64,000 bases of DNA from Alphaproteobacteria bacterium (GTDB lineage: Bacteria; Pseudomonadota; Alphaproteobacteria; UBA9219): positions 2,001-66,000 of the forward strand of contig JAQUYN010000005.1 of NCBI GenBank assembly GCA_028691835.1, in the 5' to 3' direction. This document shows positions 50,292-55,930 of this stretch, piece after piece (position 1 is the first letter of the stretch; each line of letters begins with the position of its first letter). The notes under the pieces are model-generated. The model did not search any database and was not told the origin of the DNA. It saw nothing but the letters and a program-made list of their open reading frames with translations. A program made the translations under genes and the position numbers.

Positions 50292-51956
50292 ATGGGCTTT
50301 GCAAGCACCCTTCTGAATGTTTCTCGTCTTATCGGGTGTTCTTTCCTCTTTCTGTTATGGGCATCGCCACTTTCGGCAACACCATTGGACGATCTTCTCT
50401 CAACAGTAATGGAAGATGAGGCTCAGGCCGTTCAAAAAGCGCTAGCTTTGAATAAATCCCAATCCAAATATCATTTGAATACGACTGATCTTCAGGCCTT
50501 TTATCAGGTCCGTGAGTTTCGGCCCACATGGCTGACAAAAAAGACAACCGACAACAAGAACCTGTCCACTTTCATCGATTCTTTAAAAGCGTTTGGCGAA
50601 TATCACGGACTGCCAGAATCAGATTATCCCGCCGTTGAAATGCAGCGCCTTCTTGCCAGCCCGTTAGCAGAAGATGCCATCACACTTGATCTCCTTATAT
50701 CGGACAGACTCATTAAAATCGCCCACGATTTGAATGGCGACCGCGTGAATCTTGGATTGCTTTATGTGGGCTGGGATTTCACAAAACCGCCACGTCATGT
50801 TGTCACCGAGTTTGCCGAAGCCATTCAAAACAACAAAGTTGATGACTATATTTCATCTCTCTCCCCGACCGGATTTGACTATACGCGGTTGGCCGATAGC
50901 CTAAAAGTTTATCGTGAAATCAAGAACCATGGTGGATGGCCGTTCATTCCCTCTGGTCAGACGATAAAGCTGGGCATGGATGACCCACGGATCGCTTTGA
51001 TTAAACAACGGTTGGCCGCCGAAGGCTATGATCTTTCTCCAGATTTGCAGCCAGAGGATACGCACTATACCGAGGCGCTTGAGCAAACCGTCATCGCCTA
51101 TCAAGCTCGCAATGGATTAAAAGGTGACGGCAATTTAGGCAAAAATACCATCCGTGCGATGAGTATAACTGTTGATCAGCGGATCAATCAGATCTTGGCG
51201 AATATGGAACGCATCCGCCACCTGCCACGAGATCTTCCAAACCGCTACGCCCTTGTCAATATTGCTGATACGTCTGTCAAAGTCATCGAAAACGGCCAAG
51301 TCATTTATCATGCGCCTGTTGTCGCTGGCCGCACGGATAGAAAAACGCCCTTTATTCAAAGTTTTATACGTAGTGTCATTTTCAATCCATCTTGGCATGT
51401 GCCCTCGAAAATTGCGCGTGAAGATATTTTGCCCAAGCTGCGCAAGGACTCGCATTATCTGGAAAAACACCGGATGGTCATCAAAGAGGGGGATGGAACC
51501 GATCCCCATGGCACCTTGATTGATTGGAAGAGAATTTCTGCCGCAGAGTTTACCTATCGCCTACGTCAAGAACCTGGGGCTACGAACGCATTGGGGCGTA
51601 TTAAATTTGATTTCGACAATGACTTCTCCGTTTATATGCATGGCACGCCACACGAGGAGCTTTTCGCGAAAGCGCGGCGGCATCTCAGCTCTGGCTGCGT
51701 GCGCCTGCAAGATCCCGTGACGTTCGCCACGATTGTTTTACAAGGCAATAGTGGCAACTGGGATAAGAACAAAGTTGAGAAGGAGGTTCGTTTAGCTAAA
51801 ACGCATTGGCTCACGCTTGAAGAGCCGCTGCCTTTATATTTCATCTATCAAACGGCAACGTTCCCAACACCGGAGGGTCCGATCCACTTCAGCCCAGACG
51901 ACTACAATTATGACCAGATTTTAACGGACGCTTTGAGAGAAGCGGAACGCAAATAG
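50292..51956 (+). CDS. L,D-transpeptidase, YcbB/LdtD-like (PG-binding + YkuD domains)
   Basis: It has a signal peptide, a PG_binding_1 motif (YQARNGLKGDGNLGKNT) and the YkuD catalytic motif HGTP...SSGCVRL. Confidence 0.85.
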   Translation: MGFASTLLNVSRLIGCSFLFLLWASPLSATPLDDLLSTVMEDEAQAVQKALALNKSQSKYHLNTTDLQAFYQVREFRPTWLTKKTTDNKNLSTFIDSLKAFGEYHGLPESDYPAVEMQRLLASPLAEDAITLDLLISDRLIKIAHDLNGDRVNLGLLYVGWDFTKPPRHVVTEFAEAIQNNKVDDYISSLSPTGFDYTRLADSLKVYREIKNHGGWPFIPSGQTIKLGMDDPRIALIKQRLAAEGYDLSPDLQPEDTHYTEALEQTVIAYQARNGLKGDGNLGKNTIRAMSITVDQRINQILANMERIRHLPRDLPNRYALVNIADTSVKVIENGQVIYHAPVVAGRTDRKTPFIQSFIRSVIFNPSWHVPSKIAREDILPKLRKDSHYLEKHRMVIKEGDGTDPHGTLIDWKRISAAEFTYRLRQEPGATNALGRIKFDFDNDFSVYMHGTPHEELFAKARRHLSSGCVRLQDPVTFATIVLQGNSGNWDKNKVEKEVRLAKTHWLTLEEPLPLYFIYQTATFPTPEGPIHFSPDDYNYDQILTDALREAERK

Positions 51957-52001
51957 ACACAGCATAAAATTGCTTCTGTTAACCATAAAAGAATTTTCCC
52001 G

Positions 52002-52110
52002 TTTTAAGAGCCGCTGAGTGCGATGTTTCACATACCCGGCTACACCCCTAGCGGGCCTATGTCTGGAGGCACTCTACGGGCCTTCTAAACGGCTCTATGG
52101 CGGTCTGTTT
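52002..52110. repeat. Family-C hairpin repeat
   Basis: TTTTAAGAGCCGCTGAGTGCG...CACCCCTAGC...GCACTCTACGGGCCTTCTA..CTATGGCGG matches 17803-17900. Confidence 0.7.
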
Positions 52111-52149
52111 TGGGCGAGTCTGAGTGGCAAATCCAAAATGGGCCTTTTT

Positions 52150-52390
52150 ATACCAGCGGACCTATGAACGGACTCATTGAAAAGGCAGTTCTCAATCACT
52201 CGCTCTGTGCCTGGCACACCTCTTGCCGGACGGAACGCCTTGTGCCTAAGGGAGAGAGGACTGTGCGGCCAGAGGATCCCTCCTCGCAACCGCTCGCTGG
52301 ACCGAAGAAGCCAAGAAGAACAGACCTTTCCTTTCGGCAAGCAGCAGGTGAGGCGCAGAGCGAATGAGGTCGGCTGGCGGGACGACCGGA
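52150..52390 (+). repeat. Family-A MITE-like repeat, long variant
   Basis: The left arm is identical in type (ATACCAGCGGACCTATGAACGGACTCATTGAAAAGG). The right side carries the inverted core GTGAGGCGCAGAGCGAATG. The right boundary is approximate. Confidence 0.75.
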
Positions 52391-52439
52391 ATTTTAGCAG
52401 ATAAGGAGTATATGAGCCCCCCTGAACAGCCCTTTTTGC

Positions 52440-53768
52440 CTAAGAATGAGGCAGGCCCGACTCTTTCACAAAGGCGGCGGCGCGCGCCATATAATTTTCA
52501 AACATGTCATAGCTAGGCGAGGCCGGTGAAAGGAGGATAACGCCCCCCGCTGGGGTGATCGCTTTGGCTTGCCTTAAAGCTTCCGCCATGGAGGTAACCT
52601 GCATAACGTGCGCAGCGCCGCCTGCCTTTAAAAGATCCCCTATAGGCAAACCACTTTCCCCCATGCAGACAACGGAGACATTCTGTTGTTGCAAAATATA
52701 TTCTGACAACGGCGCAAAATCGATCCCGCGATTTTGTCCCCCCGCGATCAATGTAATCGGACGATGCGCATATACGCGCAAGGCAGCCACAGCCGATTGG
52801 GGCGTTGTCGATATACTGTCGTCAACATAAAGGATGCCGTCCATTTCACCAACCTCTTGTTGGCGATGAGGCAAACCTTTGTAATATTTCATCGACGCAA
52901 GCGCCTGATCGCAGGACAGCTGAAGCGCGTCGATAAGAGCCATCACACCGCATACATTCACTTGATTATGTGGCCGCAAAAGATAGGTATTTTCCAAGGC
53001 GCCAATACAGCACGGTCCGCAGTACAGGTCGCCTTCCTTAAAATGAAACTGGGACTTGCTGTCAAAAACACGTGCGCCGTCAATTTGCAAATTATGAGCG
53101 GCCATAACGGATTCAGCTTGCGTTGTCGTCAAAAGAGTTTCGCAATGCTGCAACACTTGGCACTTATCGGTGTAATAAGCCTTAAGGCTTTTGTGCCAAT
53201 CCAAATGTTCAGGATAAAGTGAAGTTATCAATCCCATCAGGCAAGAACCGTCAAAGTTGGCCGCTTGATAGCTTGAAACCTCAAGGATCACATAATCAAA
53301 ATCTTCCGCTTTGCACTCTGTAACAGGCACGCCAAAATTGCCGAGGATCGTCACGCGTTGGCCGAGCTGTTGCAAAACATGAGTCAGCAAGGAGGCTGTC
53401 GTACTCTTCCCTTTCGTGCCAGTAATCGTGATAACGCGACGAGAATCGTTTTCTGCGCTCCACAAGTTTAACAGCGAAGTGATTGGGATCTGCCGCGCCT
53501 TTGCGGCTTCAAGTATGGGGTGGTAAAAGCTTACACCCGGCGATTTGATGATCACATCCGCAGCAAGGACAGCCGCCTCTATTTCAAATAGATTTGTAAT
53601 CAGTCGATCCGTAGGCCATTCCTTTGGCAGCGAGGCTTCGCCATGTTCATCAACGAATGTGAAAACCTGTTTGGTGTGAAGCGCGCGAATATAGCGCGCT
53701 GCTGCCAAGGCTTCAATGCCTGTTCCCCAAATCACAATTTTCTTATCGCGTAATTGAAACCTATGCAT
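52440..53768 (-). CDS. Mur ligase, MurD-like (UDP-MurNAc-L-Ala--glutamate ligase; possibly the L-Glu-adding MurD2 type)
   Basis: It has an N-terminal Rossmann segment (KIVIWGTGIEALAAARY), the P-loop GTKGKST and a Mur ligase C domain. It lies outside any dcw cluster and overlaps the upstream PP-loop gene by 8 nt. Confidence 0.8.
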   Translation of the reverse strand: MHRFQLRDKKIVIWGTGIEALAAARYIRALHTKQVFTFVDEHGEASLPKEWPTDRLITNLFEIEAAVLAADVIIKSPGVSFYHPILEAAKARQIPITSLLNLWSAENDSRRVITITGTKGKSTTASLLTHVLQQLGQRVTILGNFGVPVTECKAEDFDYVILEVSSYQAANFDGSCLMGLITSLYPEHLDWHKSLKAYYTDKCQVLQHCETLLTTTQAESVMAAHNLQIDGARVFDSKSQFHFKEGDLYCGPCCIGALENTYLLRPHNQVNVCGVMALIDALQLSCDQALASMKYYKGLPHRQQEVGEMDGILYVDDSISTTPQSAVAALRVYAHRPITLIAGGQNRGIDFAPLSEYILQQQNVSVVCMGESGLPIGDLLKAGGAAHVMQVTSMAEALRQAKAITPAGGVILLSPASPSYDMFENYMARAAAFVKESGLPHS

Positions 53769-55098
53769 CAGCGATCACCTTTAAATACGCATTGGAAAGC
53801 TGATGATCGGTGCGCAAAGCAAAAAGTTTGTTATACTGCGTTGCGTGCGCGGGGTAACGATCCTTTAACAACGGCGCTATATCAGCGATGACGCCGTCCC
53901 CTTGCCATTCCGGCAATTGGGAAAGGTGCATCATCAAGAGCGCACTTTCTTCAACCTCCCCCACGCATTCAAAGGGTTTGTGAGGGCCGAGTCCACACAG
54001 TTCTTTGAAGCCAGCAAGTTGCGTCATATCCGCCAACAGGTTGGCTCCAAAAATGGCAATAAGTTTCTCTTTACCCATGAACGAGGCCAATGCCAAAAAA
54101 ACAAAGCGGCATTTGGGACATGTGCAGCACCATTTTTTGCCGCGAGCAGACTCGTCTTGTTTAAAGGCCGTGTTGCAGCTTCGAAAAACCGCGTGATAGG
54201 CCTCACATTTTGAAAAACGCATCGCAATAGCGGTTTCTGTCAACGGGCGTAACAACGAAAAATAGGAAAGGCTCGGTGAAATGGTGTGTTGAACGATGGC
54301 ATTAAAGTCTTGCTCAAACGCAAAGGACTTACTGTATTGATGGTTGACCTCTGCGCCATGGCTTACGACATTCGGCTCACTGGCCGCATACTCATTCGAC
54401 AAAACGATGGTGTCATAGCCATAAAGGATCGCACAGGCAACGACGATACTGCTCAGGATCGCTGTGATGGGAACATGGCCATTCAATGCCCCCTGCGCAT
54501 TCAACGCCATTAAGTTGGGGGACAAGAACCGCTTGATATGCAGCGAAGGCAGCCCCGCCACGCGCAGTGTATCCGCAATAGGTTGAGCGAGATTTTGCCC
54601 ACCACAGGCAATCAGTGTTTGGTCATATCCGGCATGACGAAGAGCTTCAATGGAAGTGATGGAATCTTTGCCACCGCCGACAGGCACCAACAGTCGATGA
54701 GGAAGATCCAGAGACGCCGCTTGATTTTTGCGTATCGTCACTGCCGTTTCAAAGACGAAATCCAGCGTAACGTTGTTACAGAATGCGAACTCGCCAAGTC
54801 CGGCACGATACACCTTTGCGCAAAACGCAGCCAATGTCGGATCAAGATCAAAAGAGGGACAAGCCAAGCGATGCGGAATGTCGGCCTTATAATAACTGAC
54901 CCCCGCCAACAGGAAGATCAATCTGAAGGCGTTATCAAGCGCAGCCTGATCCTGCTCCGAAAGAGCACGGCGCCCTTCGGGAAAGATGATTGTTTCCGTG
55001 AATTCGGGCCCATTTAAGAACGCATAATTCAGCTGCAGCGTACCCGTCGCGCTTTCATAAGAATAAGCTTTGAATTGGAATTCTTCGTAACGTGACAC
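53761..55098 (-). CDS. PP-loop (GGGKDS) ATP-pyrophosphatase-like protein with CTCPKC motif; candidate MurL-type epimerase
   Basis: The 445-aa ORF starts at GTG with AAGGAGAG 9 nt upstream. It has the motif VPVGGGKDS and a Cys cluster, WCCTCPKCRF. It appears translationally coupled to the MurD-like gene. Confidence 0.6.
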   Translation of the reverse strand: MSRYEEFQFKAYSYESATGTLQLNYAFLNGPEFTETIIFPEGRRALSEQDQAALDNAFRLIFLLAGVSYYKADIPHRLACPSFDLDPTLAAFCAKVYRAGLGEFAFCNNVTLDFVFETAVTIRKNQAASLDLPHRLLVPVGGGKDSITSIEALRHAGYDQTLIACGGQNLAQPIADTLRVAGLPSLHIKRFLSPNLMALNAQGALNGHVPITAILSSIVVACAILYGYDTIVLSNEYAASEPNVVSHGAEVNHQYSKSFAFEQDFNAIVQHTISPSLSYFSLLRPLTETAIAMRFSKCEAYHAVFRSCNTAFKQDESARGKKWCCTCPKCRFVFLALASFMGKEKLIAIFGANLLADMTQLAGFKELCGLGPHKPFECVGEVEESALLMMHLSQLPEWQGDGVIADIAPLLKDRYPAHATQYNKLFALRTDHQLSNAYLKVIADA

Positions 55099-55372
55099 AG
55101 TGCGGGCTCTCCTTGTTCATTATGTCGCATAGATAAGTGTCGGATTCAATCTCATCGTCAGAAACGAGACTCATGATAACCAGCCGGGGGATGATGTAAA
55201 TTTTGACAGGGCCTATACGCTGTCTATTTTATATCTATTTTATCCTTTTGTTATAGCTTACTTTTTGCGCGCTGGTTAACAAGATAATCGTTTCACCTTG
55301 TTTTTATGCTTAAAAAAGAGTAAGTATGCGGCTTCGTTTGTACGCTCATAGTCGGTTAAAGATACGTAACGC

Positions 55373-55930
55373 ATGGCAAAACAAGTCGACCTTACCAAAA
55401 GACGCTTTATGCAAATGGGCCTCGCTGCAACAGCGGGCGTTATTGTACAGCCGTCTCTTGTTTTAGCCAGACCTTTTGGCCACAAAATGAAAGAGCTTGC
55501 TTTTTATAACCTCCACACCGATGAAAAGCTTCGCGTAACGTACTGGAAAAACGGTCAGTTTAACAGCTCGGCCATGTCCCAGATTAATCATATTCTTCGT
55601 GATTTCCGTACTGGCGATGTGTTCCCCATGTCGGCCAACCTCATCGACTTCCTTCACGACCTTCAAACACGCTTGCGGACAGACAGTCCCATTGAGATTA
55701 TTTCTGGTTATCGCTCGCCGCGTACAAATGCTGCGTTGGTTCACAACTCAGATGGCGTAGCCCGACGCAGCTATCACATGAAGGGCCTTGCCACAGATAT
55801 AAGGATGCGTGGCGTCTCAATTCGTCAAATCCAGACGGCCGCTCTCTTTATGAAGCGTGGCGGCGTCGGCTTTTACCCCCGGTCCGACTTTGTTCATGTC
55901 GATGTCGGCCCTGTTCGCCGCTGGGGTTAA
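55373..55930 (+). CDS. DUF882 / peptidase M15A family murein endopeptidase (YcbK/MepK-like), Tat-exported
   Basis: It has a twin-arginine signal (KRRFMQMGLAATAG) and metal-ligand motifs SGYRSPxTN, HMKGLATD and DFVHVD. Confidence 0.85.
   Translation: MAKQVDLTKRRFMQMGLAATAGVIVQPSLVLARPFGHKMKELAFYNLHTDEKLRVTYWKNGQFNSSAMSQINHILRDFRTGDVFPMSANLIDFLHDLQTRLRTDSPIEIISGYRSPRTNAALVHNSDGVARRSYHMKGLATDIRMRGVSIRQIQTAALFMKRGGVGFYPRSDFVHVDVGPVRRWG

What the first reader, a model, noticed from the sequence alone, without database searches (positions are those of the whole stretch)
52440..55098. MurD-like ligase translationally coupled to a PP-loop protein: possible MurD2/MurL (L-Glu addition then epimerisation) route, wedged between ldtD and mepK
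A MurD-type ligase (P-loop GTKGKST) lies outside any dcw context. Its start overlaps by 8 nt the end of a 445-aa protein carrying an ATP-pyrophosphatase PP-loop (VPVGGGKDS) and a CTCPKC cysteine motif. In Xanthomonas oryzae, a second MurD (MurD2) adds L-Glu to UDP-MurNAc-L-Ala, and an adjacent ATP-dependent enzyme of roughly 450 aa (MurL) epimerises it to D-Glu, bypassing glutamate racemase. The pairing, size and ATP-activating motif here fit that scheme, but I cannot confirm from memory that MurL carries this exact motif. The pair, with family-A and family-C repeats beside it, separates an LdtD-like L,D-transpeptidase from a DUF882/MepK-like endopeptidase. Those two genes are adjacent partners in E. 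coli (ycbB-ycbK).
Basis: partly seen in the sequence, partly recalled or inferred. Interest (0 to 1): 0.6.

Follow-up and report, generated by a model that had tools for sequence, protein, structure and literature searches.

The report
murL–murD2 alternative D-glutamate cell-wall route
This overlapping gene pair is the known Xanthomonas-type bypass for putting D-glutamate into the cell wall: a ligase adds L-glutamate and an ATP-using enzyme then flips it to D-glutamate. In this uncultured alphaproteobacterium it appears to be the only such route, so the finding is correct but is a new example of a known pathway.

Summary

**The two genes**
- Window 53761-55098 (-) encodes a 445-aa protein that matches NCBIfam MurL over its full length (E 5e-136). 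It is 41-45% identical to Xanthomonas and Stenotrophomonas MurL.
- Window 52440-53768 (-) encodes a MurD-family ligase. Its start overlaps the murL stop by 8 nt (ATGCATAG).
- The ligase carries the published MurD2 stereospecificity residues: E187 and R347 (matching X. oryzae E197 and R358), plus P418 and Y420. It falls in the clade of MurL-linked ligases, apart from canonical MurD.

**The rest of the genome**
- This is the only MurD-level gene in the genome.
- The dcw cluster runs mraY-ftsW with a 3-nt gap and no murD.
- No murI and no D-amino-acid transaminase were found.

**Relatives**
- Across 71 genomes of the same order, MurL and MurI are almost mutually exclusive: 24 have MurL only, 31 have MurI only, and 1 has both.
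- A same-genus relative with MurI has murD in its dcw cluster and has ldtD and mepK adjacent. The "wedge" between those two genes is therefore real.

**Added here**
- The MurL core folds like the PP-loop/zinc enzyme QueC: an invariant GGGKDS loop and a QueC-type Cys4 motif. This gives a concrete basis for its ATP-to-AMP chemistry.

**Verdict**
New member of a known kind, of moderate to low interest.

The parts
53761..55098 (-). [quoted passage not shown]
   Evidence: It matches NF041275 at 453.6 bits (E 5.3e-136), with residues 5-441 aligned to model positions 8-442 of 447. It is the only such gene in the genome. It is 42% identical to X. vasicola MurL over residues 1-442. The AF2 model has pLDDT 93.3.
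54661..54678 (-). PP-loop codons of MurL (G141-G-G-K-D-S146)
   Evidence: These residues are invariant in 20 homologues that are 50-79% identical to the window protein. They align with the SGGKDS PP-loop of TtuA and the SGGQDS of E. coli QueC.
54109..54177 (-). Cys4 motif of MurL (C308-x15-C324-x2-C327-x2-C330), a putative zinc site
   Evidence: C308, C324, C327 and C330 are invariant. The spacing pattern matches the C-x8-C-x2-C-x2-C of E. coli QueC. Foldseek matches QueC structures 2pg3 and 3bl5. Metal binding is inferred, not tested.
52440..53768 (-). [quoted passage not shown]
   Evidence: It scores 306 bits on TIGR01087 against a cut-off of 212 and has the three Mur ligase domains. Its signature residues are E187, I319, R347, P418 and Y420, against D182, K319, K348, A414 and L416 in E. 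coli MurD. It sits in the clade of MurL-linked ligases.
53400..53420 (-). ATP-binding P-loop of MurD2 (GTKGKST, residues 117-123)
   Evidence: It aligns with GSNGKST, which includes Lys115, of E. coli MurD in PDB 2wjp and 2jff.
53761..53768 (-). 8-nt stop/start overlap ATGCATAG (translational coupling of murL to murD2)
   Evidence: The overlap was read directly from the sequence. In 84 of 86 related loci murL is directly followed on the same strand by the ligase gene; the computed gaps were mostly negative (overlap) but used longest-ORF starts. The two exceptions are contigs that end after murL.
55099..55372 (.). Divergent intergenic region between murL (-) and mepK (+)
   Evidence: There are back-to-back promoter-like hexamers. 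On the minus strand: 55200-55173, TTTACA-16-TATCAT. On the plus strand: 55203-55230, TTGACA-16-TATTTT. These are consensus matches only. An AAGGAG lies 10 nt upstream of the murL GTG. The region has no repeat copies elsewhere in the genome.
51957..52439 (.). Spacer downstream of murD2 made of dispersed repeat units (about 52148-52296 and 52290-52413)
   Evidence: blastn against the genome finds at least 79 other copies of the first unit (73-89% identity) and at least 11 of the second (85-92%). There is no Rfam match.
50292..51956 (+). ldtD-like L,D-transpeptidase (left flank)
   Evidence: Pfam finds YkuD, Scaffold and PG_binding_1. NF007891 scores 260 bits, below its cut-off of 425. In same-genus genome G066 it lies directly next to mepK.
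55373..55930 (+). mepK (DUF882 / peptidase M15) L,D-endopeptidase (right flank)
   Evidence: NF053624 scores 206 bits against a cut-off of 185, and PF05951 has E 1.7e-53.

Best explanation
The two overlapping genes form a murL-murD2 operon that supplies the D-glutamate residue of peptidoglycan without free D-glutamate.

**Step 1 (inferred from homology and specificity residues).** MurD2 uses ATP to ligate L-Glu onto UDP-MurNAc-L-Ala.

[quoted passage not shown] It consumes ATP and releases AMP. The product then enters the ordinary MurE and MurF steps encoded in the dcw cluster.

**Mechanistic proposal for MurL (inferred from the fold).**
- Its core is a QueC-like PP-loop domain.
- The GGGKDS loop binds ATP and adenylates the alpha-carboxylate of the terminal Glu.
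- Activation makes the alpha-proton exchangeable, directly or through an oxazolone with the preceding Ala carbonyl.
- Hydrolysis of the D-configured adenylate then releases AMP.
- The Cys4 motif probably holds a structural zinc, as in QueC.

In this genome the pair is the sole route, because murI, dat and the dcw-cluster murD are all missing.
For: **MurL identity**
- MurL shows full-length homology to NF041275 (E 5e-136).
- It is 41-45% identical to MurL of Xanthomonas, Stenotrophomonas and Lysobacter.

**Conserved pairing**
- The murL-then-ligase order is kept in 84 of 86 loci, from Alphaproteobacteria to Lysobacteraceae and a Sericytochromatia MAG.

**Ligase specificity residues**
- PMC8788868 reports that X. 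oryzae MurD2 E197 and R358 set L-Glu specificity.
- The window ligase has E187 and R347, plus P418 and Y420, at those positions.
- Among 84 MurL-linked ligases the counts are E 83, R 81 and P 79, with Y or F in 80. Canonical MurDs of MurI-bearing relatives have D, K and A.

**Phylogeny**
- The quick tree separates four canonical MurDs from 87 MurL-linked ligases on a branch with 97-99% SH-aLRT support.

**Own genome**
- One MurD-level hit only.
- The dcw cluster is murE-murF-mraY-ftsW-murG-murC-murB-ddl-ftsQ-ftsA, with mraY and ftsW 3 nt apart.
- No TIGR00067 hit.
- The only class IV aminotransferase is IlvE.

**Relatives**
- MurL and MurI are near-exclusive across the 71 genomes of the order.
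- Seven of the nine other genomes of the genus have MurL and lack MurI, including genomes that are 96-100% complete.
- G066 (same genus, has MurI, lacks MurL) has murD between mraY and ftsW.

**MurL fold**
- The AF2 model has pLDDT 93.3.
- Foldseek matches QatC, QueC (TM 0.65-0.70 on the target), TtuA, Cap9 and MnmA, all at probability about 1.0.
Against: - No biochemistry exists for this protein pair. L-Glu specificity and epimerase activity are inferred.
- The MurL score of 453.6 bits is below the NCBIfam equivalog cut-off of 700, which is tuned to Xanthomonadales.
- The genome is a 146-contig assembly, 93.6% complete with 5.3% contamination, so absence of murI is not proven from this genome alone.
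- One Asp/Glu-racemase-superfamily gene is present next to murA. It is YgeA-like and scores 109.5 bits on TIGR00035.
- Sequence-profile comparison of MurL with E. coli QueC aligns only the PP-loop (hhalign probability 1.6%). The QueC relationship therefore rests on a predicted structure.
Confidence: 0.88

Rival explanations
1. The ligase is a functionally ordinary D-Glu-adding MurD that has moved out of the dcw cluster. Free D-Glu comes from the YgeA-like racemase next to murA, and the MurL-like protein does something else.
For: - A TIGR00035 'amino acid racemase' ORF lies directly upstream of murA on contig C11.
- The ligase passes the generic murD equivalog cut-off.
Against: - The ligase carries the two residues whose replacement switches X. 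oryzae MurD2 to D-Glu specificity.
- It groups with MurL-linked ligases rather than with the canonical MurD of its own genus.
- The YgeA-like gene was not found in any of the nine other genomes of the genus, including seven MurL-positive, MurI-negative ones.
- Across the order the YgeA-like gene is sporadic (13 of 71) and unrelated to MurL or MurI status.
- Its first catalytic Cys position reads Asn (ANNT; inference by comparison with the CNT motif recalled from memory).
Confidence: 0.05
2. The pair is an accessory or redundant copy, as in relative G022 which has both routes. The canonical murI would then lie in the unassembled ~6% of the genome.
For: - The assembly is 93.6% complete in 146 contigs.
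- G022 shows that both routes can coexist.
Against: - The dcw cluster is assembled across the place where murD would be, and mraY and ftsW are only 3 nt apart. The canonical murD is therefore truly absent, and a murI would have no D-Glu ligase to feed.
- Same-genus MurL-positive genomes at 96-100% completeness also lack MurI.
Confidence: 0.04
3. The pair acts on something other than the peptidoglycan precursor. Examples would be a recycling intermediate linked to the neighbouring ldtD and mepK remodelling genes, or a secondary metabolite.
For: The pair sits between two periplasmic peptidoglycan-remodelling genes.
Against: - That context is not conserved. Other genomes of the genus carry the pair elsewhere, and none of the 15 related loci checked (six with only 1.5-kb flanks) shows ldtD or mepK beside it.
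- The genome would then have no enzyme for the essential MurD step, although murA, murB, murC, murE, murF, mraY, murG and ddl are all present.
Confidence: 0.03

Closest known systems
Xanthomonas oryzae MurL (XOO_1319) / MurD2 (XOO_1320) alternative peptidoglycan pathway (Feng et al. 2017, reviewed in PMC8788868 and PMC5808125)
   Same: - A two-gene unit with murL first and the MurD-type ligase second, overlapping on the same strand.
- Full-length MurL homology.
- The Glu, Arg, Pro and aromatic residues that define MurD2.
- A genome lacking murI and dat.
- The ligase is the only MurD.
   Different: - Only 41-45% (MurL) and 31-34% (MurD2) identity to the Xanthomonas and Stenotrophomonas proteins.
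- The MurL score is below the NCBIfam equivalog cut-off.
- The host is an uncultured alphaproteobacterial lineage of about 2.5 Mb, not among the genera listed in the reviews (Devosia, Pelagibacterium and Parvularcula for Alphaproteobacteria).
- The pair is inserted between ldtD and mepK.
- There is no biochemical evidence for this pair.
Canonical MurD (E. coli b0088; PDB 1UAG, 2JFF) with glutamate racemase MurI
   Same: - The same three-domain Mur ligase architecture.
- The P-loop, Glu157, His183 and Lys198 equivalents are conserved (E163, H188, K202).
- The same position in the pathway.
   Different: - D182 is replaced by E, K348 by R, A414 by P, L416 by Y and K319 by I.
- The gene is not located in the dcw cluster.
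- It is paired with murL, and no murI is present.
- About 29% identity to E. coli MurD.
QueC (7-cyano-7-deazaguanine synthase; PDB 2pg3, 3bl5) and QueC-like PP-loop proteins (QatC 9y02, Cap9 9nto, TtuA 5gha)
   Same: - A PP-loop nucleotide-binding fold for the MurL core.
- A glycine-rich xGGxDS loop.
- A C...C-x2-C-x2-C cysteine cluster.
- Chemistry that adenylates a carboxylate or carbonyl oxygen and releases AMP.
   Different: - No detectable sequence homology beyond the PP-loop.
- MurL is twice as long, with an extra N-terminal beta/alpha domain (about residues 1-125) and a C-terminal helical domain.
- The first loop residue is Gly, not Ser.
- The substrate is a UDP-muramyl dipeptide and the outcome is epimerisation, not amide or nitrile formation.

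Membership tests
[quoted passage not shown] | Full-length sequence homology to characterised MurL | tested here: met
   NF041275 gives E 5.3e-136, covering model positions 8-442 of 447. The protein is 42% identical to X. vasicola MurL over residues 1-442.
[quoted passage not shown] | Score at or above the curated NCBIfam equivalog cut-off (700 bits) | tested here: not met
   The score is 453.6 bits. The model is named for Xanthomonadales, and none of the alphaproteobacterial homologues in 371 genomes searched reaches its cut-off. This therefore reflects the model's scope rather than a different family.
[quoted passage not shown] | Genetic linkage to a MurD2-type ligase | tested here: met
   The two genes overlap by 8 nt. 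The same arrangement is found in 84 of 86 related loci.
[quoted passage not shown] | Host lacks glutamate racemase and D-amino-acid transaminase | tested here: met
   There is no TIGR00067 hit. The best TIGR01121 hit is IlvE. MurL and MurI are near-exclusive across 71 relatives. Caveat: the genome is 93.6% complete, and one YgeA-like racemase is present.
[quoted passage not shown] | ATP- and Mg2+-dependent unidirectional L-to-D epimerisation with AMP release | not testable with these tools
   This requires an enzyme assay.
[quoted passage not shown] | Mur ligase N, middle and C domains with an ATP P-loop | tested here: met
   PF21799, PF08245 and PF02875 all match. TIGR01087 scores 306 bits. 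The P-loop GTKGKST is present.
[quoted passage not shown] | Glu and Arg at the positions of X. oryzae E197 and R358 (E. coli D182 and K348), which set L-Glu specificity | tested here: met
   The window ligase has E187 and R347, and also P418 and Y420 where X. oryzae has P433 and F435.
[quoted passage not shown] | Phylogenetic placement with MurL-linked ligases, apart from canonical MurD | tested here: met
   In the quick IQ-TREE a branch with 97-99% SH-aLRT support separates the four canonical MurDs. The window ligase is sister to the MurL-linked ligase of same-genus genome G062. The careful search did not finish, and only four canonical sequences were used.
[quoted passage not shown] | Preference for L-Glu over D-Glu in vitro | not testable with these tools
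   This requires an enzyme assay.
PP-loop ATP pyrophosphatase superfamily, QueC-like (for the MurL core) | PP-loop motif SGGxDS after the first strand of a Rossmann-like fold | tested here: met
   A variant, GGGKDS, is invariant in 20 homologues. It follows strand 136-139 and precedes helix 144-155 in the model. It aligns with the PP-loops of TtuA and QueC.
PP-loop ATP pyrophosphatase superfamily, QueC-like (for the MurL core) | Fold similarity to solved PP-loop enzymes | tested here: met
   Foldseek hits are QatC (E 1.3e-6), QueC 2pg3 and 3bl5 (E 1e-4 to 7e-4, TM on target 0.65-0.70), and TtuA, Cap9 and MnmA. The query is a predicted model, not an experimental structure.
PP-loop ATP pyrophosphatase superfamily, QueC-like (for the MurL core) | Sequence-profile homology to QueC beyond the PP-loop | tested here: not met
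   hhalign of A1 against E. coli QueC aligns 22 columns at probability 1.6%. MurL has no Pfam hit in the local library.

The most novel reading that the evidence does not exclude
Two linked readings go beyond a plain new member of a known pathway.

- **Origin and active site of MurL.** MurL is an offshoot of the QueC-type PP-loop/zinc enzymes. The only MurL reviews found in the library say it 'lacks known conserved domains'. The QueC relationship would give this ATP-to-AMP, one-way peptide epimerase a defined active site. That site would comprise the GGGKDS adenylation loop, a Cys4 zinc site, and invariant H208, H253, E377 and C378 as candidate proton-exchange residues.
- **Interchange with the canonical route.** In this alphaproteobacterial order the murL-murD2 cassette and the murI plus dcw-murD pair have replaced each other repeatedly, even within one genus. 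The replacement includes clean removal of murD from the dcw cluster, and at least one genome (G022) carries both routes.
Probability: 0.45. Interest if true: 0.5.

Novelty: new member of a known kind. Interest (0 to 1): 0.3.

Why it matters
- **Scope of the pathway.** The reviews present the MurD2/MurL bypass as limited to relatively few genera. It is in fact common in an uncultured, small-genome alphaproteobacterial order: 25 of 71 genomes, against 13 of 300 (excluding the window's own genome) in an even sample of the class.
- **Annotation.** Pipelines miss it. NCBI names the homologues 'endonuclease domain-containing protein' or 'hypothetical protein', and labels the ligase as an ordinary D-Glu MurD. 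Metabolic reconstructions would therefore wrongly flag a D-Glu gap or assign the wrong substrate.
- **Evolution.** The switches between MurI plus MurD and MurL plus MurD2 within a genus are a natural experiment on replacing an essential cell-wall step.
- **Mechanism.** The QueC-like fold gives testable residues for the unexplained MurL mechanism. The pathway has been proposed as a narrow-spectrum antibiotic target.

Tried and rejected
- **RNA gene in the spacer.** I suspected an RNase P-like RNA in the GC-rich spacer 51957-52439. Rfam gave no match at E <= 0.1, and blastn showed the spacer is dispersed repeats.
- **Pfam for MurL.** The local Pfam library gave no hit for MurL or for any of 20 homologues. 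The large protein database lists PF26298 and PF26299 for them, but those models are not in the local copy.
- **PDB sequence search with MurL.** No homologue has been solved. The best hit is the TtuA PP-loop region at E 0.24.
- **hhalign of MurL against E. coli QueC.** Only the PP-loop aligns. The own genome has no queC to compare with.
- **Literature.** The search for later structural or mechanistic work on MurL returned only the two reviews, and one query was swamped by 'Constant-Murley' papers. PMC2922099 was checked and is irrelevant.
- **Tree.** The careful tree search did not finish in 300 s, so the quick tree was used.
- **Conserved context.** I looked for ldtD or mepK next to the pair in 15 related loci and found none, apart from same-genus G065. 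The context is not part of the system.
- **Earlier scan notes.** Notes near this place were unrelated.
Full report
**1. Observation**

- Read on the minus strand, the junction is ...GCT G**ATG CAT AG**G.... The upstream stop TAG and the downstream ATG therefore share the 8-nt ATGCATAG.
- The quoted motifs are present. The ligase has GTKGKST at residues 117-123. The 445-aa protein has VPVGGGKDS and CCTCPKC.
- The left flank is an LdtD-like L,D-transpeptidase at 50292-51956 (+), with YkuD, Scaffold and PG_binding_1 domains.
- The right flank is MepK at 55373-55930 (+), scoring 206 bits on NF053624 against a cut-off of 185.
- The 483-nt spacer downstream of the ligase gene consists of dispersed repeats. 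A unit of about 150 nt has at least 79 other copies in the genome, and a unit of about 124 nt has at least 11. It has no Rfam match.

**2. What the two proteins are**

The 445-aa protein:
- It has a single NCBIfam hit, NF041275 'UDP-N-acetyl-alpha-D-muramoyl-L-alanyl-L-glutamate epimerase' (MurL). The match is E 5.3e-136 at 453.6 bits and covers model positions 8-442 of 447.
- The score is below the 700-bit equivalog cut-off. That model is named for Xanthomonadales, and no alphaproteobacterial homologue among the 371 genomes searched reaches the cut-off.
- A scan of one genome per species found at least 595 loci encoding relatives.
- The window protein is 48-56% identical to proteins from uncultured Alphaproteobacteria, Stellaceae and Acetobacteraceae MAGs.
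- It is 41-45% identical to MurL of Xanthomonas, Stenotrophomonas, Lysobacter and Pseudoxanthomonas over essentially its whole length.
- In the large protein database the family has at least 8000 clusters. JGI names some members as this epimerase, while NCBI calls them 'endonuclease domain-containing protein' or 'hypothetical protein'.

The 442-aa protein:
- It is a MurD-family ligase. TIGR01087 scores 306 bits against a cut-off of 212, and all three Mur ligase domains are present.

**3. MurD or MurD2?**

The review PMC8788868 reports mutagenesis of X. oryzae MurD2.
- E197 and R358 correspond to E. coli MurD D182 and K348.
- The E197D/R358K double mutant switches fully from L-Glu to D-Glu.
- P433 and F435 replace E. 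coli A414 and L416.
- E. coli K319T gains some L-Glu use.

Alignment with E. coli MurD structures and with the E. coli gene gives the window residues:

| E. coli MurD | X. oryzae MurD2 | Window ligase |
|---|---|---|
| D182 | E197 | E187 |
| K319 | not given | I319 |
| K348 | R358 | R347 |
| A414 | P433 | P418 |
| L416 | F435 | Y420 |

- The 84 ligases found next to MurL in other genomes read E (83), I (82), R (81), P (79), and Y or F (40 each) at these positions.
- Canonical MurDs from MurI-bearing relatives (G066, of the same genus; G021; the second copy in G022) read D, K or N, K, A, F.
- A quick IQ-TREE places the four canonical MurDs on one side of a branch with 97-99% SH-aLRT support. 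All 87 MurL-linked ligases are on the other side.
- The window ligase is sister to the MurL-linked ligase of same-genus genome G062.
- The careful tree search did not finish, and the canonical sample is small.

**4. Is the pairing conserved?**

In 84 of 86 related loci murL is directly followed, on the same strand, by the ligase gene. The computed gaps were mostly negative (overlap), but they rest on longest-ORF starts. The two exceptions are 3-kb contigs that end after murL. This matches the X. oryzae gene pair XOO_1319/XOO_1320.

**5. The rest of the genome**

The assembly is 2.54 Mb in 146 contigs, 93.6% complete with 5.3% contamination.
- It has one MurD-level hit, which is this gene.
- It has one MurL.
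- It has no TIGR00067 glutamate racemase.
- Its only class IV aminotransferase is a clear IlvE, scoring 483 bits on NF005726.
- The dcw cluster on contig C114 reads murE-murF-mraY-ftsW-murG-murC-murB-ddl-ftsQ-ftsA. Only 3 nt separate mraY from ftsW, so murD is absent from its usual slot on assembled sequence.
- One Asp/Glu-racemase-superfamily ORF is present next to murA. It is YgeA-like and scores 109.5 bits on TIGR00035.
- Homologues of that ORF are absent from all nine other genomes of the genus. Across the order they occur in 13 of 71 genomes and do not track MurL or MurI status. It is therefore an unlikely D-Glu source.

**6. Relatives**

Counts across the 71 genomes of the window's order:

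| D-Glu route found | Genomes |
|---|---|
| MurL only | 24 |
| MurI only (E <= 1e-40) | 31 |
| Both MurL and MurI (G022) | 1 |
| Dat only | 2 |
| None of the three | about 13 |

- Within the window's genus, seven of the nine other genomes have MurL and no MurI. These include genomes at 96%, 97% and 100% completeness. The two without MurL have MurI.
- G022 has two MurD genes. A MurD2-type copy lies next to murL, and a canonical copy lies between mraY and ftsW.
- G066 (same genus, has MurI, lacks MurL) has murE-murF-mraY-murD-ftsW. It also has ldtD-mepK-M16 peptidase as direct neighbours.
- G065 (same genus) shares the window's arrangement of murL (-), mepK (+) and M16.
- Other genomes of the genus carry the pair away from mepK.
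- The 'wedge' between ldtD and mepK is therefore real but local. ldtD and mepK are also adjacent in E. coli K-12.
- In an even sample of the class, 13 of 300 genomes, excluding the window's own, have MurL.

**7. How MurL may work**

The reviews state that MurL needs ATP and Mg2+, forms AMP, acts only from L to D, and 'lacks known conserved domains'.

Sequence conservation among 20 homologues shows these invariant elements:
- GGGKDS (residues 141-146)
- NGHxP (206-210)
- NHQxSKS (252-258)
- C308
- C324-x2-C327-x2-C330
- KPFECVG (374-380)

Structure:
- An AlphaFold2 model built on this alignment is confident (pLDDT 93.3, pTM 0.92).
- Its best PDB fold matches are all PP-loop enzymes:
  - QatC, E 1.3e-6
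  - QueC 2pg3 and 3bl5, target TM 0.65-0.70
  - TtuA, Cap9 and MnmA
- E. coli QueC has SGGQDS and C-x8-C-x2-C-x2-C. MurL has the same kind of loop and the same CxxCxxC cluster with one more distant Cys.
- Profile comparison with QueC aligns only the PP-loop. The relationship is therefore at fold level and rests on a prediction.

Inference: the PP-loop adenylates the alpha-carboxylate of the terminal Glu. This acidifies the alpha-proton, possibly through an oxazolone. Hydrolysis of the D-form then gives AMP.

**8. Verdict**

- The system is the known MurL/MurD2 bypass in a lineage not listed in the literature I could read.
- It is apparently the sole route to the D-Glu residue in this genome.
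- It is a new member of a known kind.
- The modest extras are the QueC-like fold of MurL and the within-genus mosaic of the two routes.

Noticed in passing
G000:C114:9301-11709 (locus L117; not in the window): The ddl gene of the dcw cluster encodes an 802-aa protein with two complete sets of D-Ala-D-Ala ligase N and C domains, that is, a tandem Ddl-Ddl fusion.
   Followed up: partly
window 51957-52439: The spacer between ldtD and murD2 is built from dispersed repeat units. A unit of about 150 nt (52148-52296) has at least 79 other copies in the genome at 73-89% identity. A unit of about 124 nt (52290-52413) has at least 11 at 85-92%. There is no Rfam match.
   Followed up: partly
G000:C11:8417-9106 (L007:1483-2172): A YgeA-like Asp/Glu-racemase-family gene lies directly upstream of murA. 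The first catalytic Cys position appears to read Asn (ANNT), while the second motif (ACTE) is kept. The gene is absent from the nine other genomes of the genus.
   Followed up: partly
Relatives G053, G005, G006, G042, G012 (loci L118-L122): Five genomes of the same order, 95-100% complete, have a canonical-type MurD (D, K or N, K, A signature). They have no hit to MurI (TIGR00067), Dat (TIGR01121 at E <= 1e-50) or MurL. Their D-Glu source is unresolved.
   Followed up: partly
Relative G022 (L016/L024 and L020/L023): One genome of the family carries both routes. It has murL-murD2 on contig C1, and murI plus a canonical murD between mraY and ftsW on C32. This may be a transitional or redundant state.
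   Followed up: partly
Database names of MurL homologues (P0005, P0019, P0034 and others): NCBI annotation calls many MurL homologues 'endonuclease domain-containing protein'. Nothing in the sequence, the model or the fold matches seen here supports that name, so it looks like a propagated misannotation.
   Followed up: no
window 55173-55230: Back-to-back promoter-like hexamer pairs face murL (minus strand) and mepK (plus strand) in the 274-nt divergent spacer. These are consensus matches only.
   Followed up: no
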